Shown: in pieces, positions 25,258 to 45,943 of the stretch
Numbering within the stretch: position 1 is the first letter of the stretch
Layout: the number at the start of each line of letters is the position of its first letter
NCBI GenBank assembly: GCA_000002445.1
Contig: CH464491.1
Location: 1,920,001-1,984,000 of the forward strand
DNA length: 64,000 bases
From: Trypanosoma brucei
Lineage: Eukaryota
Direction: 5' to 3'
The notes under the pieces: generated by a model
What the model saw: the letters and a program-made list of their open reading frames with translations, nothing else
What the model was told of the DNA's origin: nothing
Database searches by the model: none
Program-made: the position numbers and the translations under genes

Positions 25258-26978
25258 TGATTTGTTGGAGGATGAAGAAAAAAACAACAACAACAACAAC
25301 AACAAAAAACAAACAAAGCACGCAAAAAACAAAAAAAAAGAGGAGGGAAGTGGTGGTTATCAGATAGCTAAATTGGTCACACCGTGCGATGGAGCCAAAA
25401 GCTTTCTGTACTTGCTCTTACGAGTATTTTTTCTCTCCTATGATCTTTTCTTCTAATTTGCCGCAGGTTGATTTCGGCTGTTTAAAATTAAAAACTATAG
25501 TCGCACAGCAAACGTACGCCGACCGTTCGTAGGCGCTGATGAAGATATGGAAAGGGTGGAAAGAAAAAAAAAGAAGAGAGAAGTCAGATAAGGTATTTTT
25601 AGAGTGGTATTTCTTGACATTGCAGAAAAGTGGACATAACAAATCATTAAATAAATAAAGTAGAATAATCATAATCATAATAATAATACGAATAACAATA
25701 AGAGAGCCGATGCAAGAAAAGAAAGGAAAACAATTTTTTTCATAACAATATTCGACAGCATACAACTCTTTACCGTAGCACATACGCACACACGTAAAGA
25801 GGAAGGAGGCGGCATCTTCTCAACGGGCCTCCGCAGAAGTGAAGCATAGTGGCATCATTCTATGAACAGTATCGAAAGGAACTGCTTTTTTTTCTTTCTT
25901 TTTTCTTTAAAAAAGAAAAACCTCTTTCCTCATCTCTCCTCCAAACACGTTTTCGTTTTCGTCTTCAGCTTCCTTTTTTTTTTCCACATCCTCTTCACCT
26001 TTTCAATTACTCCAAAATTTATTTATTTTTTTAAATCCACTTTAACAAGGTGCGACCGCTTCTTTCCCTTTCTCATTTTAACAAAAAAAAATTAAATAAC
26101 TAAATAATAAAACCTCTCGTTCTCAAAACACGCACGGGGAACAGGCAAAATGAAGGGAGGAAAATACGGGCGGGTTACGAAGCCCATGAGCAATGGAGTA
26201 GATATAATAAGGAAATTCCAAGTGGACATGAGACAAACTCGTGTGTGTGTGTGTGTATCAGGTGAAACAAAGAAATCATACGTGTGTATTAAAAAAAAAA
26301 AACAACAACAACAAAAGAAAGTAAAATATTGGTATGAAACAAAAGGGAATGTGTATAGCTTTACATCAGTGTTCCTTTGAGTGCATGTGTGAATGTTCAA
26401 GTGGGTAACCGCTACTGTGTTAAGATGAATATATTTAAATTCTGCATCATCTTCCAACTTTTGTTCGGTTGTGATGCTCCGCTTCACCAGAAAACAGCGA
26501 CTGAAGTAATTCCGCACAATAAAATTTACTTTGACGTGTACGCTCCCCCCCCCCTCCCTCCCTTCTTTCCTTCCGTCCTTCTTTCCTTTATTATTATTAT
26601 TATTTTTTTTTTTTGGTTTTAACCTCGCTTATTCTCTTCCTTTTTTTCCCCCTTCTCCATTCTCCTCGTTACTCCGCACCCACCCCTTTTTTGTTTATTT
26701 ATTTCCCTTCTGTAACGTTGCAAAAAAGGCCCTTAAAATAAGGAAACAAAAACAGGACTTGAGACAGAGTGACAAAAAGAGAGAAATTGAACTAAAATCG
26801 GGTACAATAAGGGAATGAAGGGGGAAGAGGAAAACAAAACAAAACAAAACAAAGAAGAATGGGGACTATTTCTACATCATGACGATAATAAAAATAATGA
26901 TGATAATAATAAAACATCGCAGGATAACGACGCCCCTCAAAACCTTATAGTTCTAGCAACAGATACAAACACACAAAA

Positions 26979-27015
26979 ACAGCTAATTAACATCTTATTG
27001 ATGTTAATTAGCTGT
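26979..27015. repeat. perfect 15-bp inverted repeat (hairpin, 7-nt loop)
   Basis: acagctaattaacat cttattg atgttaattagctgt read directly. Confidence 0.9.
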
Positions 27016-27678
27016 GTATTCCCCTCGTTTCGTTCCCTTTACTTCTTCAGAATTTCCTCTTTTTTTTTGTTTCCCCCTCCTTCCTAATCGTCCATTCGCT
27101 TGGTGTTTATTCATTATTTCCGTCGTATAGGCCTTTCGTGCTTACACATCAATAACCATTCTTAATCATTTTTTCTTTTCTTTTCTTTTTTCTCCTTCTT
27201 AAAAAAAAAAATTAACCACCTTTATTATTATTGTTATTATTATGATCTTACAATTATTGCAATAATGTCCTTCTCCCTTATATCTCTTTATCTTCTCATT
27301 CGCAATCCCGTAAGGCGTGTTACCACAACCTGTCACTACCACTTTTATTTTTATTATTATTATTATTATCATTTTTTTTCCTTGGAATTACAAGCAATTA
27401 TTCCCCTTCGTAATAATTAGATGAATTTGTGTTGTCTATTTATTCGCACACAATTAAAAAGGAAAAAAAAAGCAAAAAAACGGAAAGGCAGCACAAACCT
27501 AAACATATACATCTTACTTCTTCCTCTTCCTCTTTCTTTCTTTCTTTTTTTTTAAAAAAATGTTTCCTCCCGTCCCCCTTCTCATTCTTTTCTTTTTTTT
27601 TTTGTACGCATTGTTAATAATGGCATATTTCCCCACGTTTAAGTTCCTCCATCACAACTTTTGATACGAGAAACATTT

Positions 27679-27709
<31 letters not shown>
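27679..27709. repeat. (CA)n-(TA)n compound microsatellite
   Basis: cacacacacacacacatatatatatatatat. Confidence 0.9.
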
Positions 27710-28204
27710 TTTTTTTTATATACACATATATGTATATATATTTTAATTTAAATGTATATGCCACGCTACCATCAACGCGCACATCTTCATGAAATAAAAA
27801 ACTAAAAAAAAATCCACCAAAGCAAAAAAAAAAAAGAAAAGAAAAGAAAAGGAAGAGGCGGGAGGGGGGAGGGGAAAAAAATAAAAAAATACAAATGAGC
27901 ACTACTCCAAAAAGGCGGCGGCACTCATGTACGAAACCTTCCATTCTTCCATACAAACTCTCTTTTCCCCTTTTCCTTTACTTATTTCTTTGAAAACGTC
28001 TTTTATCTTTTCTTTCTTTTTTTTTTTTACATAAACTGCAGCAGTAGCAGTAGTGGTGGTGGTGGTGGTGTTTGTGGGGGAGAAGAAACATTAAAAAAAA
28101 AACAGAAACAGAAAAAAAAACAAAAGAGAAGATGATTGAGGGGAGCATCATCACGAAAAACGCAAGCATACGAAAAAAAAAATGTTAGCAGCTATATGAT
28201 TCAG

Positions 28205-28231
28205 TATATATATATATATATATATATATAT
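28205..28231. repeat. (TA)n microsatellite
   Basis: tatatatatatatatatatatatatat. Confidence 0.9.
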
Positions 28232-29372
28232 GTTTGTATAGCGTAAATCACAAGAACAAAAATACAAAAAAAAAAAGAGCAAAAAAAAAAGCCTTCAGCC
28301 CCAAGCACAGAAGGCGTTCGTTACATCAAACAGATTAAATAAGAGGAAAGGAAGGAGGAGAATGAGAGAGGGAGAAAAAAAAAAAGAAACTACAAGTGGA
28401 GATACAATAAATGACAAAATGAAAAGAAGAAGGAGGAAACCCACCGCACTGCAAAGGAAAAAGGAAAAAAAAGGAAAAAAAGGGAAAAGGGAAGGGAGGG
28501 AAAAAAAGAAACAAAAGAAATTCACTCAGGAGAGTTGGAGGAACGCACACGCACCCACCCCCCCAAAAAAAAAGAAAAAAAAAGGAAACAAGAAAGAGAA
28601 AGCCATACCACAACAGTACCCTTTCACTTGGTCTTTCAATCCCCTTTCTTGTTTTCTTTTTTTTTTTTTCACCCTCTCTTCGTTCCTCTAACGTTGGCGA
28701 TAACAAAAAAAAAGAACAGGTAAATGTGAGGGAGGAATGGAGGAGGAATAAGAAGGAAAAAAAAAGAAAACAAGAAAGCAACAACATCAATACTGTAAAC
28801 AGAACCAACCGTCATGCATTCGCACCTACAACAGCGCACCGAGGCATACCACAAGGGCTAATTTACAAATTACAATAACAAGGCAAAAAAAAAAAAGAAA
28901 GCGGGAAATTAATGGGGTTTCAACCACACTCCCGTCCGCTCAACTACGGCACTGAAAAGAAAAAGAAAGGACAACAAAATATCGCCTACACGATGCACAC
29001 ACAGTTCTTCTTTTTTTTTTTTCGCCCATTTTTTTTTTCCACGGCTCTGCATTCTAAACTCCATTTTCCTTTTCGACGATCTCTCGCGTTCGCCACCGTT
29101 GTAAGTTTCACATGCGTTTATACGGGGTACGTGATGGAAAAATAAAAGAAAAAAATGAGTGCTCGCATTCCATTCTTTAAAGGTAGTAGTAATAGTAGCA
29201 TTATGACCAGGGAGGTAAAAGGAAAAAAAAGAAAATGGGAGGGGAACAATAAAAGAAAAGAGCAGAGGAAGACTACGATTTATTGAAAGGCCCGAAAGCG
29301 GTCAAACCACACTTGCTGAAACCCAACGCTTTTCTTCCAACTATCTACCAACCCAACTTCCCATTAAATAAC

Positions 29373-38488: not shown

Positions 38489-39286
38489 TTCTTCAAACTT
38501 TGTGTATCGTATCTGTTATCCAAATCTCAACTTCTGCCCACTTTCAACATGCTACACACCCCATTGTACACATATGAAAAAGAGGGGAGCGCACCAAAGA
38601 GGAGTGAAAAAGTGACTGAATAAGCAGAAAAGGGCAAAACACGGTACACTCAGTCAAGGACTATGACCAACGGACAAATAACACACACAACATCCTCTTC
38701 ACCATTTCTGTTGCAATTCCCTAAATTTTCCGTTACTTCTCCCTGGAAGAGAAGCTCATACCCACGTACTAAAAGCAAAAAAAAAAATAATAAGAATGGA
38801 CGACAACTCACACGAAATACCTGCCACAAGTCGAAACTGACCCATCTCGAAAAAAAAAGGCAGGTGATGTTGAAAGATAAGCCACAACGCCACCCCGAAT
38901 ACAACCTCGTGCCATTACAAACATTTACTACAAATATCAAACGATAAGAGCCCTCCGGCGAAACATAATAATGAAAAAGAGAATGAACAGCGACAAAATG
39001 GTCGAGTAACAACACCAACTAAAAAAAAGCTAATCACTATCCCCACAATGACCAGTAGGAAAATTAAATGTGGGAAAACGAATGAGCCAGAAGCGACACA
39101 TTTGATAGTTTAAAAACGAAACTGAAGAAAAAAAAATACAACAAACGGAACCAGTACAGCAAACAAAAGATAAAAAAAAAATAGCACCACTCAAAAATAA
39201 TAGTAATAATAATATTGTTTAACGGTCGAAAGCACTTTATTAGCAACCATAAAGAAAAACACTTTTCTTAATGGTGCCTCAACCCC

Positions 39287-40546
39287 TCACAGTTCTCCCC
39301 TCTTGTTCACCTTGAGCAAGTTATGCCACATGTTGTGAGACTCATCAATCACCTTCATTGCGTATTCCTTGTCCTTGAATTCACCATCGAAAGCAAAATG
39401 GCTCGCTTCACCACCCTGACAAATCTTGTACACACGGAACCACTCACGGATGGCATCAAGACATCCAGGAAGGAACTTCGGTACGTCATGGATGTCTTTC
39501 ATGAAACGACATATAGGATCGTTGTGGGATATGCAAACAACTTTCCAATCCATCTTGCCCTCGTCAATCATTCCAAGCACACCTAGCACTTTTACTGCAC
39601 TCACCTGACCGACTTTGAATTGCGTCATCCCGATCTCAACAGCATCTACGGGGTCATTGTCACCAGTCACCCCAGCCTCGAATAACACCTCTGTGCTCTC
39701 CCATGTCTGTGGAAACGCACCATAGTTCCACATCATATCACCATGCTTGTAGAACCGAGGTACGCCATTCTTGATATCCTGCTTTATGGGATTAAATGAC
39801 TCTCCAGTCGCGATCTCAAACTTTGCGCGCGTCCACTTAGGGATCTCACAGATGAAATTGTAGCGATTCATTGGTGTCGCCTCGGGCTTTGTTCGCACAA
39901 GATCACGTACATACAGCGGGATGTCATGCCACGGCGATACCTGCCGCTCCCTACCGGTTTCCAAATCCCTGAAGAAGTACAGTACGCGGTAGCTGGGTGT
40001 GTACATTTCACCTTTCTCGTGCACAACCAACTGCTGCTGGTGATACGGCATGGAGAAATCGGCAGACACCATCGAGAAACATTTCGTCCTGGAATGTACA
40101 GGATGGGAACACCACCACGCCCAAAACTTCTCAAATGTCACGTGACCATCGATAGCATTGATTTCAGCTTTCATGGCCTTCACATCCCCATCGCTCATGT
40201 TACGGCCCAAGTACCTGCATACCTCTTCCACTTTGTCAGGCGTGAGGTAGCCAAGATGCGTCACATCGAATGCTGAGAATAATCGACTCATGATCTTTTT
40301 GATCATTGGTTGAGTGAAATCATCCTTATCGTAGGCGGCAAGATCCAGTTCGCTCACCTTCCGGTCAACCGCCTCCTGAATAGGCTCTGCGACGTCGGCC
40401 TCAGAACCCCTGCCGGTACTTATGTTGGTACCAAGTGATGCCGAGAAAGGCAGCCCCGCCACTTCGGCAGAAGCCAAATCTTGGGGAGACGTTCGATCAC
40501 TGCGCGAATCCACACCGTGTGTGTTGTTCATATCTACAGTTGGCAC
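39287..40546 (-). CDS. VSP1: soluble inorganic pyrophosphatase with N-terminal EF-hand domain (vacuolar/acidocalcisomal VSP1 type), copy A
   Basis: 419 aa. N-terminal EF-hand-like region (DKDDFTQPMIKKIMSRLFSAFDVTHLGYLTPDKVEEV; NMSDGDVKAMKAEINAIDGHVTFEKF). C-terminal family I PPase core (NFICEIPKWTRAKFEIATGE, KQDIKNGVPRFY, GDNDPVDAVEIG, VKVLGVLGMIDEG). 8 aa differences to copy B, clustered near both ends. Confidence 0.9.
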   Translation of the reverse strand: MPTVDMNNTHGVDSRSDRTSPQDLASAEVAGLPFSASLGTNISTGRGSEADVAEPIQEAVDRKVSELDLAAYDKDDFTQPMIKKIMSRLFSAFDVTHLGYLTPDKVEEVCRYLGRNMSDGDVKAMKAEINAIDGHVTFEKFWAWWCSHPVHSRTKCFSMVSADFSMPYHQQQLVVHEKGEMYTPSYRVLYFFRDLETGRERQVSPWHDIPLYVRDLVRTKPEATPMNRYNFICEIPKWTRAKFEIATGESFNPIKQDIKNGVPRFYKHGDMMWNYGAFPQTWESTEVLFEAGVTGDNDPVDAVEIGMTQFKVGQVSAVKVLGVLGMIDEGKMDWKVVCISHNDPICRFMKDIHDVPKFLPGCLDAIREWFRVYKICQGGEASHFAFDGEFKDKEYAMKVIDESHNMWHNLLKVNKRGEL

Positions 40547-40547
40547 T

Positions 40548-40570
40548 TTAAAAGGCGGAAGAGGGAAAGC
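40548..40570 (-). promoter_or_regulatory. polypyrimidine tract plus AG (candidate trans-splice acceptor) immediately upstream of pyrophosphatase copy A
   Basis: Sense strand reads tgctttccctcttccgcctttt aaAG tgccaactgtagat ATG. The identical element sits at 45382-45404 for copy B. Confidence 0.35.
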
Positions 40571-41898
40571 AATCGATTAAAACACAAAGTACATAGAAAC
40601 AACGACATATTCCGGCGTGATAGTTGTATCGCATACCAACTTCTTCCACTCCAAAATACTCGCAGCTTAGACACTCAAATGCTTTGCTTAGCGATGCTTA
40701 ACGCTGCCTGCATGCGCGCCAGAGTTCTTCTTCTGCTGTCGACCTCACTGGCTAGGCACACCCGAGTGGTAATATCGGTTGTTGTAACAAATGGAGTGGA
40801 AATTTCTTTAACCGTTACCAGTTAGTTGTCCCCTTCCTCACCATTACGCACCAAAGTCAGCTAACTATACCGTGTGGAGCAAATGAACTGACAAATAAAT
40901 GGAAGGTAAGCACTGATATAGAACAGTGAACCGTACTATCATTATAGGATGGCGTTCACCCACCGCGGTTCCACGGCGGCACCAACCTCTCTTCAGCCAT
41001 AACAAAATTCAAACTCACGAAGGTAATAACGTAGCTAGCTAAACATCTATGTTGTGCCAAGCCATTCACTGGCAGCTGAGGTGCTTCCCAGTAACGCGTG
41101 AGCCTCGTTGGTTTTCTTGGCTCAGCACCCTTTCGCGTAAGAGGTCTTGCAACCCAAATTGTCACCTTCAACTCCGAATACAGGAACATACCAGCGTGTG
41201 GTGCAAACCCACCATCTCAAGAGAAGAAAGGTGACTTCCCGAGTAATCTGGAGAGCAGACACCCTGAGAGAGATTATGCCACTTGACAGCTGCATCAGAA
41301 TAGCCACATGGCGCCAGCACACTCATGGGAGATTTGTGGTTATAATTGATATGCAAGACTGCCATCCCGGAGGAAACCGTTCGACCAGTGTCTGCATCTG
41401 CCGCAACCCACCATGTCCCGCAAACCGTTCACTGCATGCCACACTCCTCCACACAGCGTGGCGTTCTAACGCATGATACAGGGTTGATTTCGGACGGACA
41501 AGCGTACAAAAAAGAGATACGTTGAACGATGAAGATGGACCGCAGCTCCAGTGATGTACTGTCAGTGTCAGTGTCAGTTCTGTTGGCTGACGGTAACGGG
41601 TCAGTACAGCACTGTAATGTTGGCTTCCCTCCATCTGATCTTGTGGGTCCTCATCAGGTATTTGAAAGAGTCGAGCTTGTCGTGCTCATTAAAGGTCGTC
41701 ATGGGTAGAAAGAAGTGATGGACGCAGCACACTAAGCAAAACGCCAACGAGCTGGAGAGGCCATCAACACGCTCTCTCGGTCTTCCTACGTACACACTAA
41801 ATAACACAGGACAGCCAGTAGAAAAGCAACGGGCACTTAACCGTGAGTCTTTGGAGTTAACGCCTGGTAGTCGGTTAACCTCCATTACTAAGCACCCG

Positions 41899-43581
41899 TC
41901 AATATGCACATTTAGCACCTGAAACCTCACGCAGCGCATCTACGGACGAAAAATCGCCCCCCAAAAGCAGCTCCTCCACCTGCTCCATTCTCCCAGGAAG
42001 AAAAGGTACTTCCACTGCCTCACACACTTGCTGCACTGTACGCCCTGACTGTGGTGGGTACAACAGAACGACATGGCCCTCCTTCCCCATCCGCCCGGTG
42101 CGTCCCGCACAGTGAACAAATACAGAAGCTGGTGGGCATTCACCAAAGAGGATAACGTGTGTAACTTCATTTATGTGTATCCCACGACTAAGACTGTGGC
42201 TACTCACACCAACCAGTAGTAACCCTGTGTTCAACTTTTCGATAGAGCTGTTGTCCTTCACATAAACGTCCCCTTTACTTCTGCAAATGCGTTTTGGTTT
42301 TCCCTTTTCCGGGTCGAGTAACGTCTCTAATGGTGCTGCGATCTCCCGTTTGCCATTCCACCGTAACCACTTTTGTACCTCTGGGCTAGTGCTCTTCAGA
42401 GTATTTAATTGGTTAGTGACACTCCCCACCTCTTCCTGGGTTGTAAAAAGAAGTACACGCGGATTCGCCTCCTGTTTACATATTAACCGTAATATGAGTT
42501 CAAGAGAACGAGGGAGCGGATATGAGCGAGACTCCGAATAAAAGTAAAAGCTGATTGTTTGAGGAATAGTGTGCTCTACGAAGCTGGTAGTAAGCCTAAC
42601 TGCTTTGTCATTTCGCATCCACATATTAAGAGCCTGCGCCGTACGACCATCTATAGTCGCACTGGCTGCAACAATCTGAGCGGGAACCTCTTCACGACGG
42701 CTACGAAACAAGCGATCAACCAAGTTAATCCCACTGATGTGTTGCCGACCAAATCGGATGTTTCCAAATAAAACAATGTCGGCTTCATCCAAAATAACGC
42801 AGTCCACCTTTCGCCGCAGTTTCTCCCCAAGCAAGGTTGGACTGAAACGTAGCACATCGGCAACTCGCTGCGGGGTTCCCACCAACACATGAGGTTGAAT
42901 GTTATGTAGCTTGGCCAACTGCACTTCAAGCGTTATACTCTCGATAGCAACTTGAACAACCTGTTGAGTGGAGCCACAAAAATGGCGCAACCACTTGTCA
43001 TATTGAAGAGCCAATTCCTGAGTTGGGACAATAATGACAGTGTGAAGACGATAATTGATATTTTCACGAATTATTCGATTGGCACAGGCAAGTGCGATAC
43101 CAAAACTCTTTCCCGTCCCGGTTTCCGCGTGAGCGATGACATGTTTACCCTTCAGTAAGAGAGGAATGAGAGCTCCTTGTAACTCTGTGAGACGCCCGAT
43201 CCCCAGCTTCTTCAGCGCCACAACGAGTGAAATACATAATCCGGCCCCACGCGGAGCCGTTTGCGAAAAGAACAAGGGATGCGCCTCGTTGTTATTAGCT
43301 ATGTTCGCCGTCGTTGGACTTAACATTTGCGCAGAACCAAGTCGAAGTTGCACTGTCCTATGCCTCTGGGAGGCACCTGAATCCCGCGTCGCATCACGCG
43401 CGTAGAAAAACTTCTGGGATGGTGGAAGGTTAGCCGCATGCGCCTCACCACCCTGTCTCATATAGTCATCGAGAAGTGAACCAGCCGAACCGCCATACGC
43501 CGCCCGGGAACCCTTCAAATACTTCAGATATCGCACCCCAAAGGTTTTCATTAACGTTAGGCGGGTAAGCGAGGACGACAC
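41899..43581 (-). CDS. ATP-dependent DEAD-box RNA helicase (560 aa)
   Basis: Motif I AHAETGTGKS, motif II VILDEADIV (DEAD), motif III ASAT and motif VI HCAGRTGRMG. The N-terminal ~100 aa are basic and hydroxylated, a possible organellar targeting sequence. Confidence 0.85.
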   Translation of the reverse strand: MSSSLTRLTLMKTFGVRYLKYLKGSRAAYGGSAGSLLDDYMRQGGEAHAANLPPSQKFFYARDATRDSGASQRHRTVQLRLGSAQMLSPTTANIANNNEAHPLFFSQTAPRGAGLCISLVVALKKLGIGRLTELQGALIPLLLKGKHVIAHAETGTGKSFGIALACANRIIRENINYRLHTVIIVPTQELALQYDKWLRHFCGSTQQVVQVAIESITLEVQLAKLHNIQPHVLVGTPQRVADVLRFSPTLLGEKLRRKVDCVILDEADIVLFGNIRFGRQHISGINLVDRLFRSRREEVPAQIVAASATIDGRTAQALNMWMRNDKAVRLTTSFVEHTIPQTISFYFYSESRSYPLPRSLELILRLICKQEANPRVLLFTTQEEVGSVTNQLNTLKSTSPEVQKWLRWNGKREIAAPLETLLDPEKGKPKRICRSKGDVYVKDNSSIEKLNTGLLLVGVSSHSLSRGIHINEVTHVILFGECPPASVFVHCAGRTGRMGKEGHVVLLYPPQSGRTVQQVCEAVEVPFLPGRMEQVEELLLGGDFSSVDALREVSGAKCAY

Positions 43582-44112
43582 CTAAATGCATATAGCAAAA
43601 AAAAATACTAAAATCAAAGCAGACACTGAATATAAGGTAAGCTGTGATGGGGGGGGGGAGTCCAAGACTCCTTAAAAGTTACCGCATCCAACAGCATACG
43701 GTATTCAACACAAGCTAATTAATTGAAATGCTAAGCTCGAATTCAGCATGGAAATAAGTTAATCAAACAATATAACCTCAATAAATTTATGTATGTACAT
43801 GTATACCAAACAGCAAACCTCATAAAGAAAGTTTCCCTGTCAGCTGAACGTGTACAACAACTCGCAAAAAGGGAAACTACACACTGTCAACGGTGTCATC
43901 ACCCATCGCCGGAAAAAAAAAATTACACCATTAGTAGGGAAAATAATCGAAAATGGGAGTGTGGGAGGGGAAGCCGGGGCAAAACGAAGACACTAGTAGA
44001 AAAAAAACACATACCCCAACTACAACACAAATTATAACCAACAACAGCATGAGTTGAAGTGATACCGACAGCCCAACCAAGCATCCGTAAATATATCTAT
44101 TAAACAACTGTG

Positions 44113-45589
44113 TCAACCCCTCACAGTTCTCCCCTCTTGTTCACCTTGAGCAAGTTATGCCACATGTTGTGAGACTCATCAATCACCTTCATTGCGTATT
44201 CCTTGTCCTTGAATTCACCATCGAAAGCAAAATGGCTCGCTTCACCACCCTGACAAATCTTGTACACACGGAACCACTCACGGATGGCATCAAGACATCC
44301 AGGAAGGAACTTCGGTACGTCATGGATGTCTCTCAAGAAGTGACATATAGGATCGCTGTGGGATATGCAAACAACTTTCCAATCCATTTCGCCCTCGTCA
44401 ATCATTCCAAGCACACCTAGCACTTTTACTGCACTCACCTGACCGACTTTGAATTGCGTCATCCCGATCTCAACAGCATCTACGGGGTCATTGTCACCAG
44501 TCACACCAGCCTCGAATAACACCTCTGTGCTCTCCCATGTCTGTGGAAACGCACCATAGTTCCACATCATATCACCATGCTTGTAGAACCGAGGTACGCC
44601 ATTCTTGATATCCTGCTTTATGGGATTAAATGACTCTCCAGTCGCGATCTCAAACTTTGCGCGCGTCCACTTAGGGATCTCACAGATGAAATTGTAGCGA
44701 TTCATTGGTGTCGCCTCGGGCTTTGTTCGCACAAGATCACGTACATACAGCGGGATGTCATGCCACGGCGATACCTGCCGCTCCCTACCGGTTTCCAAAT
44801 CCCTGAAGAAGTACAGTACGCGGTAGCTGGGTGTGTACATTTCACCTTTCTCGTGCACAACCAACTGCTGCTGGTGATACGGCATGGAGAAATCGGCAGA
44901 CACCATCGAGAAACATTTCGTCCTGGAATGTACAGGATGGGAACACCACCACGCCCAAAACTTCTCAAATGTCACGTGACCATCGATAGCATTGATTTCA
45001 GCTTTCATGGCCTTCACATCCCCATCGCTCATGTTACGGCCCAAGTACCTGCATACCTCTTCCACTTTGTCAGGCGTGAGGTAGCCAAGATGCGTCACAT
45101 CGAATGCTGAGAATAATCGACTCATGATCTTTTTGATCATTGGTTGAGTGAAATCATCCTTGTCGTAGGCGGCAAGATCCAGTTCGCTCACCTTCCGGTC
45201 AACCGCCTCCTGAATAGGCTCTGCGACGTCGGCCTCAGAACCCCTGCCGGTACTTATGTTGGTACCATGCAATGCCGAGACAGGCAGCCCCGCCACTTCG
45301 GCAGAAGCCAAATCTTGGGGAGACGTTCGATCACTGCGCGAATCCACACCGTGTGTGTTGTTCATATCTACAGTTGGCACTTTAAAAGGCGGAAGAGGGA
45401 AAGCAATTGATTAAAACACAAAGTACATAGAAACAACGACATATTCCGGCGTGATAATTGTATCGCATACCAACTTCTTCCACTCCAAAATACTCGCAGC
45501 TTAGACACTCAAATGCTTTGCTTAGCGATGCTTAACGCTGCCTGCATGCGCGCCAGAGTTCTTCTTCTGCTGTCGACCTCACTGGCTAG
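44113..45589. repeat. segmental direct repeat copy B (1477 bp)
   Basis: Pairs with 39279-40755. The copies are near-identical: 8 aa-changing substitutions clustered near both ends of the CDS, and two mismatches were noted in the shared 5' flank (c/t near 40575/45409, g/a near 40630/45464). Confidence 0.9.
44121..45380 (-). CDS. VSP1: soluble inorganic pyrophosphatase with N-terminal EF-hand domain (VSP1 type), copy B
   Basis: 419 aa, identical to copy A except F33V, S36L, L37H near the N-terminus and K/E, N/S, R/H, M/L, K/R changes in residues ~385-395. Confidence 0.9.
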   Translation of the reverse strand: MPTVDMNNTHGVDSRSDRTSPQDLASAEVAGLPVSALHGTNISTGRGSEADVAEPIQEAVDRKVSELDLAAYDKDDFTQPMIKKIMSRLFSAFDVTHLGYLTPDKVEEVCRYLGRNMSDGDVKAMKAEINAIDGHVTFEKFWAWWCSHPVHSRTKCFSMVSADFSMPYHQQQLVVHEKGEMYTPSYRVLYFFRDLETGRERQVSPWHDIPLYVRDLVRTKPEATPMNRYNFICEIPKWTRAKFEIATGESFNPIKQDIKNGVPRFYKHGDMMWNYGAFPQTWESTEVLFEAGVTGDNDPVDAVEIGMTQFKVGQVSAVKVLGVLGMIDEGEMDWKVVCISHSDPICHFLRDIHDVPKFLPGCLDAIREWFRVYKICQGGEASHFAFDGEFKDKEYAMKVIDESHNMWHNLLKVNKRGEL

Positions 45590-45943
45590 ATACGCACGCA
45601 ATGCAACTCGAGCACACTGTAAGTTTTTTGCGCGAATTTCACTCTGCAGCAGTGCCACATGGCGGCCAAGTGCAATAACTTTCTGTTGAGTCGCAAAGGA
45701 AGCGGTGACAGCGCTATCCTCATCCACCGGCGTAGTTGTTACCTCGACAACTTGCACAAAGAGTTCTCTGAGCTCCCTTGTTCTCTCCAGAAGTTGTGAT
45801 ACGGTGGCCAACGCTCCCTGTTCCACGTGGTTTGCATCTTCACATCCATTTTTGTCCTTACCACTGTAGTTGTGATTCCGTGACATGAGTGCAACGTTCC
45901 GGAGCACCTCCGGGATGTGTTGCCACCGCAACTCTTCGGACAT
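45509..45943 (-). CDS. possible small helical protein (144 aa). Uncertain.
   Basis: ORF with coding-like composition (QLLERTRELRELFVQVVEV...). Its last ~27 codons lie inside the copy-B repeat flank, i.e. it spans the repeat/unique junction. An alternative overlapping 216-aa ORF in another frame was rejected. Confidence 0.3.
   Translation of the reverse strand: MSEELRWQHIPEVLRNVALMSRNHNYSGKDKNGCEDANHVEQGALATVSQLLERTRELRELFVQVVEVTTTPVDEDSAVTASFATQQKVIALGRHVALLQSEIRAKNLQCARVALRAYLASEVDSRRRTLARMQAALSIAKQSI

What the first reader, a model, noticed from the sequence alone, without database searches (positions are those of the whole stretch)
39279..45589. Segmental duplication: two near-identical EF-hand pyrophosphatase (VSP1-type) genes as 1477-bp direct repeats bracketing a DEAD-box helicase gene
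Two 1477-bp blocks (39279-40755 and 44113-45589, offset 4834 bp) are almost identical and carry both the full 419-codon CDS and 209 bp of 5' flank. The 3.36 kb between them, containing the DEAD-box helicase, is unique. Identity ends abruptly at both repeat edges, and the 3' flanks (future 3' UTRs) are unrelated. The two copies can therefore share an upstream splice signal but be regulated differently through distinct 3' UTRs. Such repeats are also substrates for unequal crossing-over that would delete or amplify the helicase.
Basis: seen in the sequence. Interest (0 to 1): 0.6.

Follow-up and report, generated by a model that had tools for sequence, protein, structure and literature searches.

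The report
Known duplicated trypanosome VSP1 pyrophosphatase genes
The repeat is real, but it is the already annotated and published pair of Trypanosoma brucei acidocalcisomal pyrophosphatase (VSP1) genes, which have near-identical coding regions, different 3' UTRs and opposite life-cycle-stage expression, so the finding is correct but ordinary.

Summary
Window 39279-40755 and 44113-45589 align without gaps over 1477 bp with 15 mismatches (98.98%), and similarity stops abruptly at both edges. The 3357 bp between them is unique and encodes a DEAD-box helicase.

The window is T. brucei brucei TREU927 chromosome 11. The two genes are Tb11.02.4910/Tb927.11.7060 (copy A) and Tb11.02.4930/Tb927.11.7080 (copy B). 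All genes here are on the minus strand.

Jensen 2009 describes two linked VSP1 genes with almost identical coding regions, reciprocal stage regulation and divergent 3' UTRs. Urbaniak 2012 confirmed this at protein level: copy A is higher in procyclic forms, copy B in bloodstream forms.

Corrections:
- The protein is 414 aa, not 419.
- The shared 5' flank is 224 bp. It includes the last 81 bp and the poly(A) site of the upstream gene.

Additions:
- The gene order is shared with T. vivax, whose two copies are 99.4% identical, although orthologues between species are only about 71% identical in nucleotides. This points to an old duplication kept uniform by gene conversion.
- Two short islands of amino-acid differences are the same in T. 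b. brucei and T. b. gambiense.
- I found no real copy-number variant. The apparent deletion in T. equiperdum OVI is an assembly collapse.

The parts
39279..40755 (-). Repeat copy A (1477 bp): 224 bp 5' flank, VSP1 CDS and 8 bp after the stop codon
   Evidence: Ungapped 98.98% identity to 44113-45589 with abrupt edges
44113..45589 (-). Repeat copy B (1477 bp), upstream in the direction of transcription
39287..40531 (-). VSP1 copy A CDS, 414 aa plus stop = Tb11.02.4910 / Tb927.11.7060 (XP_828778, Q384W5). Higher in procyclic forms.
   Evidence: Exact match to database entries; ID-to-accession link in PMC3022644; Pfam Pyrophosphatase E=2.5e-42 and EF-hand_7 E=4.5e-4, the latter below Pfam's cut-off; log2 PCF/BSF +2.0
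44121..45365 (-). VSP1 copy B CDS, 414 aa plus stop = Tb11.02.4930 / Tb927.11.7080 (XP_828780, Q384W3). Higher in bloodstream forms.
   Evidence: Nearest solved structure is 5CUY, full length, E=2e-295; it differs from copy B at one residue, L406R. 2-fold up in cultured bloodstream forms; log2 PCF/BSF -4.1
41899..43551 (-). DEAD-box RNA helicase CDS (550 aa from the first ATG; Tb927.11.7070), single copy between the repeats
   Evidence: Pfam DEAD and Helicase_C; motifs AETGTGKS, DEAD and SAT present; the 550-aa product is annotated in other assemblies
45509..45943 (-). Upstream 144-aa conserved gene 'S' (XP_828781, Tb11.02.4940). Its last 81 bp (45509-45589) lie inside repeat B.
   Evidence: orthologous to the T. 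cruzi 140-aa gene directly upstream of VSP1, E=1e-21. Published poly(A) site is 32 nt after the stop, at window 45477
40675..40755 (-). Orphan copy of the last 26 codons and stop of gene S, in the 5' flank of copy A
   Evidence: No mismatch to 45509-45589; tblastn with T. cruzi S residues 111-139, E=3e-7
40546..40572 (-). Predicted trans-splicing signal of copy A: 23-nt polypyrimidine tract followed by AAAG, 14 nt before the ATG. The identical sequence in copy B is at 45380-45406.
   Evidence: Read from the sequence. Inference only; no mapped splice site was found.
38700..39286 (-). 3' UTR of copy A (587 nt to the predominant poly(A) site). Unrelated to the copy B 3' flank. Holds three UAUUUUUU motifs starting at 39183, 39138 and 38789.
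   Evidence: Kolev 2010 Table S13; motif scan
43552..44120 (-). Intergenic region after copy B, containing its 3' UTR (end not mapped). Its only UAUUUUUU (43607) is 56 nt before the helicase ATG.
40434..40447 (-). Paralogue-specific island 1, codons 29-33 (A: F..SL; B: V..LH). Copy B equivalent: 45268-45281.
   Evidence: Four-way alignment of T. b. brucei and T. b. gambiense copies
39498..39556 (-). Paralogue-specific island 2, codons 326-345 (A: K,N,R,M,K; B: E,S,H,L,R). Copy B equivalent: 44332-44390.
   Evidence: At N337, R342 and K345 copy B departs from residues that are invariant or nearly so in the other trypanosomatids aligned.

Best explanation
This is the known two-gene VSP1 locus (vacuolar/acidocalcisomal soluble pyrophosphatase) of Trypanosoma brucei chromosome 11. 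In the direction of transcription (minus strand) the order is PUA gene, S, VSP1-B, DEAD-box helicase, VSP1-A, PA-domain gene.

The duplication is old. It arose before the African (salivarian) trypanosomes diverged, during a rearrangement of an ancestral order PUA, helicase, LRR gene, S, VSP1, PA.

Since then, repeated gene conversion between the two copies has kept the CDS and 224 bp of 5' flank almost identical. That flank holds the splice-acceptor signal and a fragment of gene S. Everything from 9 nt after the stop codon onward is unrelated.

Trypanosome genes are transcribed polycistronically and controlled mainly through their 3' UTRs. The two different 3' UTRs therefore give opposite stage expression: copy A is higher in procyclic (insect) forms and copy B in bloodstream forms.

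A likely part of the mechanism is that the three UAUUUUUU motifs in the copy A 3' UTR recruit the bloodstream-specific repressor RBP10.

Shown: the repeat and its edges, gene identities, synteny, identity within species compared with divergence between species, and the published reciprocal regulation.

Inferred: gene conversion as the homogenising process, the 3' UTRs as the cause of the regulation, and RBP10 involvement.
For: - **Repeat and edges:**
- **Identity of the locus:** exact protein matches to T. b. brucei TREU927 entries. Published poly(A) coordinates fit a window offset of exactly 1,920,000 for two separate genes.
- **Published regulation:** Jensen 2009; Urbaniak 2012.
- **Synteny:** T. 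cruzi and Leptomonas have a single VSP1 in the order PUA, DEAD, LRR, S, VSP1. T. brucei, T. b. gambiense, T. b. equiperdum and T. vivax have PUA, S, VSP1, DEAD, VSP1, PA. The T. congolense contig shows DEAD, VSP1, PA.
- **Concerted evolution:** the T. vivax copies are 99.4% identical over 1572 bp. T. brucei and T. vivax CDS are 71% identical, with synonymous sites saturated (pS 0.72), against pS 0.019 between the two T. brucei copies.
- **Recent homogenisation:** at three 5'-flank sites both copies carry one base in T. b. brucei and both carry another in T. b. gambiense.
- **Exchange between copies:** the cloned TbVSP1 sequence AAP74702 is a B/A mosaic.
- **RBP10:** three UAUUUUUU motifs in the mapped copy A 3' UTR and none in the probable copy B 3' UTR. 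RBP10 binds procyclic-specific mRNAs through this motif (PMC5568443). VSP1 mRNA was enriched 2.8x and 2.6x in the RBP10 pull-down.
Against: - Two independent recent duplications, one in T. brucei and one in T. vivax, are not strictly excluded. The repeat edges differ between the species (T. vivax: 209 bp 5' and 118 bp 3').
- The second T. congolense copy could not be placed on a contig.
- No experiment read here swaps the 3' UTRs. Jensen et al. say only 'may potentially be traced'.
- The RBP10 pull-down counted coding-region reads, which cannot separate the two copies.
- What raises copy B in bloodstream forms is unexplained.
Confidence: 0.85

Rival explanations
1. The repeat is a recent, lineage-specific segmental duplication in T. 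brucei. A 1.48-kb copy of S-tail plus VSP1 was inserted downstream of the helicase, and the 1% divergence is simply time since the event. No gene conversion is involved, and T. vivax duplicated independently.
For: The edges are sharp and no similarity remains in the flanks. The S-gene fragment travels with copy A, as expected if a block was copied from B to A. The T. vivax repeat has different edges.
Against: - The derived gene order (S moved ahead of the helicase, LRR gene absent, VSP1 on both sides of the helicase) is shared by T. brucei and T. vivax. It differs from both outgroups.
- Three sites changed in parallel in both copies since T. b. brucei and T. b. gambiense split, which needs exchange between the copies.
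- The differences are strongly clustered rather than spread as a clock would give (0 of 200,000 permutations reach the observed clustering).
Confidence: 0.1
2. The repeat is an assembly artefact: one VSP1 gene was duplicated by misassembly around the helicase.
For: One public assembly (T. equiperdum OVI) shows a single hybrid VSP1 at this locus.
Against: - That assembly has 10-N gaps exactly at the junctions, and the helicase piece sits about 50 kb away. It is the one that is misassembled.
- Three independent assemblies show the same two-copy structure, one of them gap-free.
- The copies carry fixed differences, and proteomics detected 4 and 3 copy-specific peptides with opposite regulation.
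Confidence: 0.01
3. The two copies are functionally distinct isoenzymes. The eight amino-acid differences in two islands are kept by selection against conversion, so the duplication serves enzyme specialisation as much as regulation.
For: - The island differences are identical in T. b. brucei and T. b. gambiense, while the surrounding sequence is homogenised.
- All eight codons with fixed differences change the amino acid. dN/dS is 0.4-0.7 between the copies and below 0.1 between species.
- Copy B replaces R342 and K345, invariant in all other trypanosomatids aligned, and N337, conserved in all but T. vivax.
Against: - dN/dS does not exceed 1, and the counts are small (8 non-synonymous against 3-5 synonymous steps).
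- Island 1 lies in a poorly conserved N-terminal stretch.
- T. b. brucei and T. b. gambiense are very close, so conservation between them is a weak test.
- No biochemical comparison of the isoforms was found.
- This reading is compatible with the main explanation rather than exclusive of it.
Confidence: 0.3

Closest known systems
T. brucei VSP1 gene pair Tb11.02.4910 / Tb11.02.4930 (Tb927.11.7060 / .7080), as described by Lemercier 2004, Jensen 2009 and Urbaniak 2012
   Same: It is this locus. The proteins match exactly, and the published description matches: near-identical coding regions, divergent 3' UTRs and reciprocal stage regulation.
   Different: Nothing differs in kind. The papers read here do not describe the exact repeat edges, the S-gene fragment inside the repeat, the shared T. 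vivax architecture or the two islands of differences.
Concerted evolution of tandem gene arrays in T. brucei (Jackson 2007, PMC1855330)
   Same: Duplicates cluster by species rather than by position. Gene conversion homogenises coding sequence and some flank. Copies with remodelled UTRs can acquire separate regulation.
   Different: VSP1 is not mentioned in that paper's main text (0 hits for 'pyrophosphatase' or 'Tb11.02'). There, copies separated by unrelated genes tended to escape conversion and keep orthology. Here the two copies stay 99% identical despite an intervening helicase gene.
T. brucei phosphoglycerate kinase genes PGKA/B/C
   Same: They are related genes that are differentially stage-regulated (PGKC down and PGKB up in procyclic forms), and the proteomics paper uses them alongside VSP1 as a test of separating highly similar proteins. 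That they are linked genes in one polycistronic unit, regulated through their 3' UTRs, is my own background knowledge.
   Different: The PGK isoforms differ in localisation signals and are adjacent (background knowledge). The VSP1 copies differ by only 8 residues and bracket an unrelated gene.

Membership tests
Family I soluble inorganic pyrophosphatase (PF00719), trypanosomatid acidocalcisomal VSP1 subgroup | Pyrophosphatase catalytic domain | tested here: met
   Pfam PF00719 E=2.5e-42 (copy A) and 4.7e-42 (copy B), covering profile positions 2-152 of 153. Matches yeast PPase structures at E about 1e-58.
Family I soluble inorganic pyrophosphatase (PF00719), trypanosomatid acidocalcisomal VSP1 subgroup | N-terminal EF-hand-like extension | tested here: inconclusive
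   EF-hand_7 at residues 85-141 scores 21 bits, E=4.5e-4, below Pfam's 30-bit cut-off. Several orthologues carry a precomputed PF13499 hit. Calcium binding was not tested.
Family I soluble inorganic pyrophosphatase (PF00719), trypanosomatid acidocalcisomal VSP1 subgroup | Identity with the experimentally characterised TbVSP1 | tested here: met
   Both copies fall in the same 90% cluster as AAP74702 and PDB 5CUY/5C5V. 5CUY matches copy B over the full length at E=2e-295 and differs from it at one residue.
DEAD-box RNA helicase (intervening gene) | DEAD and Helicase_C domains with motifs I (AxxGxGKS/T), II (DEAD) and III (SAT) | tested here: met
   Pfam DEAD E=1e-25 and Helicase_C E=3e-7. AETGTGKS at residue 142, DEAD at 255 and SAT at 297.
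Concertedly evolving duplicate pair (gene conversion) | Paralogues within a genome are more similar to each other than to positional orthologues in other species | tested here: met
   T. brucei A/B 99.0% and T. vivax A/B 99.4% in nucleotides, against 71-75% nucleotide identity between species with saturated synonymous sites.
Concertedly evolving duplicate pair (gene conversion) | The duplication predates the species split (shared architecture) | tested here: met
   The derived order PUA, S, VSP1, DEAD, VSP1, PA is present in T. brucei and T. vivax, against the single-copy order in T. cruzi and Leptomonas. The T. congolense upstream copy was not recovered.
Concertedly evolving duplicate pair (gene conversion) | Direct trace of conversion: parallel lineage-specific changes in both copies, or mosaic sequences | tested here: met
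   At three 5'-flank sites T. b. brucei has A/A, T/T, G/G in its two copies and T. b. gambiense has C/C, C/C, C/C. Clone AAP74702 is a mosaic, although a PCR chimera is not excluded.
3'-UTR-driven stage regulation through RBP10 | UAUUUUUU motifs in the 3' UTR of the procyclic-enriched mRNA, and RBP10 binding | tested here: inconclusive
   Three motifs in the mapped copy A 3' UTR and none in the probable copy B 3' UTR. The pull-down enrichment of 2.6-2.8x rests on coding-region reads, which do not separate the copies.

The most novel reading that the evidence does not exclude
The VSP1 pair is an ancient salivarian duplicate in which selection shapes the gene-conversion tracts. Conversion is tolerated across the CDS and splice signal and stops within 8 nt of the stop codon, which preserves two regulatory 3' UTRs. 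Conversion is also excluded from two short islands that encode stage-adapted residues, including replacement of the otherwise invariant R342 and K345 in the bloodstream isoform. The locus would then be a compact natural example of selection holding conversion boundaries, producing two biochemically tuned isoenzymes.
Probability: 0.25. Interest if true: 0.35.

Novelty: already known. Interest (0 to 1): 0.12.

Why it matters
VSP1 is reported as essential for T. brucei virulence in mice (title of Lemercier 2004, as cited) and has been pursued as a drug target, with inhibitor series and solved structures.

The practical consequences of the repeat:
- Coding-region reads and probes cannot tell the two genes apart. 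Mugo & Clayton's table gives nearly equal read counts for both.
- Assemblies can collapse the locus, as in T. equiperdum OVI.
- Cloned sequences can be A/B chimeras, as AAP74702 appears to be.

As biology, it is one more example of a familiar trypanosome pattern: duplicates homogenised by conversion and given separate regulation by their 3' UTRs. It does not open a new question.

Tried and rejected
- **Remnants between helicase and copy A.** I looked for traces of the ancestral LRR and S genes in the 1.37-kb spacer, using tblastn at E up to 50. Only the 81-bp S tail already inside the repeat was found. A 13-residue S-tail-like stretch ending in a stop in the T. congolense spacer (E=0.077) is too weak to use.
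- **Second T. congolense copy.** P0131 is not on record on any contig, so only two protein entries differing by one residue are known.
- **Natural deletion or amplification of the helicase.** T. equiperdum OVI looked like a deletion but is an assembly collapse with N-gaps.
- **Mapped splice sites.** Siegel 2010 has no held supplements. The Kolev 2010 and Nilsson 2010 supplements give poly(A) or expression data for 4910 and 4940 only. The splice acceptor therefore remains a prediction.
- **dN/dS above 1 between the copies.** Not met; the values are 0.42-0.70. My first impression that every difference was non-synonymous overstated the case.
- **Jackson 2007.** No mention of this pair in the main text.
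- **tRNA genes.** None in the window.
Full report
**1. The observation**

An ungapped comparison at offset 4834 shows that window 39279-40755 and 44113-45589 are 1477 bp long and differ at 15 positions (98.98% identity). In the 50-bp windows immediately outside both edges, identity falls to 0.16-0.44.

BLASTN with 7-nt words finds this single alignment and only chance 12-21 nt matches between the flanks. No third copy exists in the 64-kb window. The 3357-bp spacer is unique.

All ORFs here are on the minus strand. Each repeat carries a pyrophosphatase ORF, and the spacer carries a DEAD-box helicase ORF (Pfam).

Two details need correcting:
- The 419-codon figure counts from an upstream GTG. 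The annotated, published and crystallised protein starts at the first ATG and has 414 residues.
- The repeat therefore consists of 224 bp of 5' flank, 1245 bp of CDS including the stop, and only 8 bp after the stop.

**2. What and where it is**

Exact-sequence look-up places both proteins in Trypanosoma brucei brucei TREU927 chromosome 11:
- Copy A is XP_828778 / Q384W5.
- Copy B is XP_828780 / Q384W3.
- The 144-aa ORF just upstream of copy B (45509-45943, here called S) is the annotated conserved hypothetical XP_828781.

PMC3022644 links Q384W5 to Tb11.02.4910.

Published poly(A) coordinates (Kolev 2010, Table S13) fit the window with an offset of exactly 1,920,000, checked on two genes:
- Tb11.02.4910 has its predominant poly(A) site at 1,958,700 with a 587-nt 3' UTR. 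This places the stop at window 39287.
- Tb11.02.4940 has its site at 1,965,477 with a 32-nt 3' UTR. This places the stop at window 45509.

The closest solved structure, 5CUY, matches copy B over the full length and differs from it at one residue.

**3.

Jensen et al. [quoted passage not shown] Urbaniak et al. 2012 (PMC3344917) separated the two proteins by 4 and 3 unique peptides. They measured log2 procyclic/bloodstream ratios of +2.0 for 4910 (copy A) and -4.1 for 4930 (copy B).

The acidocalcisome proteome paper lists both gene IDs under one protein name.

**4. Anatomy beyond the literature read here**

The outermost 81 bp of the repeat's 5' flank are the last 26 codons and stop of gene S. 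In copy B they belong to the intact gene. In copy A (40675-40755) they are an orphan fragment with no mismatch.

The mapped poly(A) site of S (window 45477) lies inside repeat B.

An identical 23-nt polypyrimidine tract followed by AAAG lies 14 nt before both ATGs. It is the probable spliced-leader acceptor. This is an inference; I found no mapped site.

**5. Age of the duplication**

The gene order in the direction of transcription is:

| Species (locus) | Order |
|---|---|
| T. cruzi (L004/L005), Leptomonas pyrrhocoris (L006) | PUA, DEAD helicase, LRR protein, S, VSP1 (single); the PA-domain gene follows VSP1 in T. cruzi |
| T. b. brucei, T. b. gambiense (L001), T. b. equiperdum (L009), T. 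vivax (L003) | PUA, S, VSP1, DEAD, VSP1, PA |
| T. congolense (L002, 6.7-kb contig) | DEAD, VSP1, PA |

The two T. vivax copies are 99.4% identical over 1572 bp, covering 209 bp of 5' flank and 118 bp of 3' flank. Copy B there has a 1-bp deletion at codon 82, which may be a sequencing error.

Between species the CDS is only 70-75% identical, and synonymous sites are saturated (pS 0.72-0.80). Between the two T. brucei copies pS is 0.019.

The simplest reading is a single duplication and rearrangement before the salivarian trypanosomes diverged, followed by continuing gene conversion in each lineage. This is the behaviour Jackson 2007 described for T. brucei tandem arrays.

The four-way alignment of T. 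b. brucei and T. b. gambiense copies gives direct traces of recent homogenisation. At three 5'-flank sites both copies share one base in one subspecies and both share another base in the other.

The originally cloned TbVSP1 sequence (AAP74702) has copy B residues at codons 29-33 and copy A residues at codons 326-345. It is either a natural recombinant or a PCR chimera.

**6. The differences that persist**

Eleven nucleotide positions are paralogue-specific in both subspecies. They fall in two islands, codons 29-33 and 326-345. None of 200,000 permutations clustered as tightly. All eight affected codons change the amino acid.

By Nei-Gojobori counting, dN/dS is 0.42 for all differences and 0.70 for the fixed ones. 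Between species it is below 0.1. The ratio is raised but does not exceed 1.

In island 2, copy A keeps the residues found in other trypanosomatids: N337 in all but T. vivax, and R342 and K345 in all. The bloodstream-enriched copy B has S, H and R at these positions.

This is compatible with isoform specialisation, but the evidence is thin.

**7. How regulation probably works**

The copy A 3' UTR, as mapped by Kolev et al., contains three UAUUUUUU motifs. The region after copy B has one, 56 nt before the helicase ATG and probably outside its 3' UTR.

Mugo & Clayton 2017 show that the bloodstream-specific protein RBP10 binds procyclic-specific mRNAs through this motif and represses them. Their pull-down table lists VSP1 as enriched 2.8x and 2.6x. 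That value rests on coding-region reads, which cannot separate the copies.

RBP10-mediated repression of copy A in bloodstream forms is therefore a reasonable but unproven step. The cause of copy B's bloodstream enrichment is unknown.

**8. Unequal crossing-over**

The repeats are valid substrates in principle. However, three T. brucei-group assemblies keep the full arrangement with identical repeat edges.

T. equiperdum OVI appears to have S, a hybrid VSP1, then PA, with no helicase. That hybrid gene contains a 10-N gap exactly at island 2. The helicase-bearing piece (window 44144-41041) sits about 50 kb away behind another 10-N gap. This is an assembly collapse, not a natural deletion.

**9. 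Verdict**

The additions made here are the exact edges, the S-gene fragment, the shared T. vivax architecture implying old duplication with conversion, the conversion-resistant islands and the RBP10 motif asymmetry. These are refinements within a well-known trypanosome pattern.

Novelty: already known. Interest: low.

Noticed in passing
L007 11613-11622 and L008 5397-5406 (T. equiperdum OVI, GCA_001457755.2): This public assembly collapses the two VSP1 repeats into one hybrid, split gene with a 10-N gap. It places the helicase-bearing segment (window 44144-41041) about 50 kb away on the same scaffold. The result mimics an unequal-crossover deletion but is a misassembly.
   Followed up: yes
P0007 (GenBank AAP74702), compared with window 39287-40531 and 44121-45365: The originally cloned TbVSP1 protein is a mosaic: copy B residues at codons 29-33, copy A residues at codons 326-345, plus R411M. 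It is either a natural recombinant allele or a PCR chimera of the two genes.
   Followed up: partly
window 45477 (inside repeat B); equivalent position 40643 in repeat A: The upstream gene S has a published 3' UTR of only 32 nt, so its poly(A) site lies inside the repeat. The helicase mRNA may therefore use the same signal in repeat A. That would give it a 3' UTR of about 1.26 kb containing the orphan S fragment.
   Followed up: partly
L003 10244 vs 5782 region (T. vivax, GCA_021307395.1): The upstream T. vivax VSP1 copy has a 1-bp deletion at codon 82 and is annotated as two fragments (89 and 311 aa). It is either a true pseudogene or a long-read indel error.
   Followed up: no
L009 15189-16661 (T. 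b. equiperdum, GCA_003543875.1): No gene is called for VSP1 copy A, and the helicase is called short (445 aa). The DNA is nevertheless colinear with the window at 99.1%. The alignment has small indels, which suggests assembly indel errors.
   Followed up: partly
window about 25400-29300: An AT-rich stretch of about 4 kb (GC 0.34 at 26-28 kb) has few ORFs and several A-rich or TA low-complexity repeats. It lies between two minus-strand ORFs and is probably a long intergenic or UTR region.
   Followed up: no
L004 8062-9099 (T. cruzi) and L006 6832-8025 (Leptomonas): A 345-397 aa gene (faint LRR_6 Pfam hit in T. cruzi, none in Leptomonas) lies between the helicase and S in both outgroups. It has no detectable counterpart anywhere in the 64-kb T. 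brucei window, so it was lost or moved in the salivarian lineage.
   Followed up: partly
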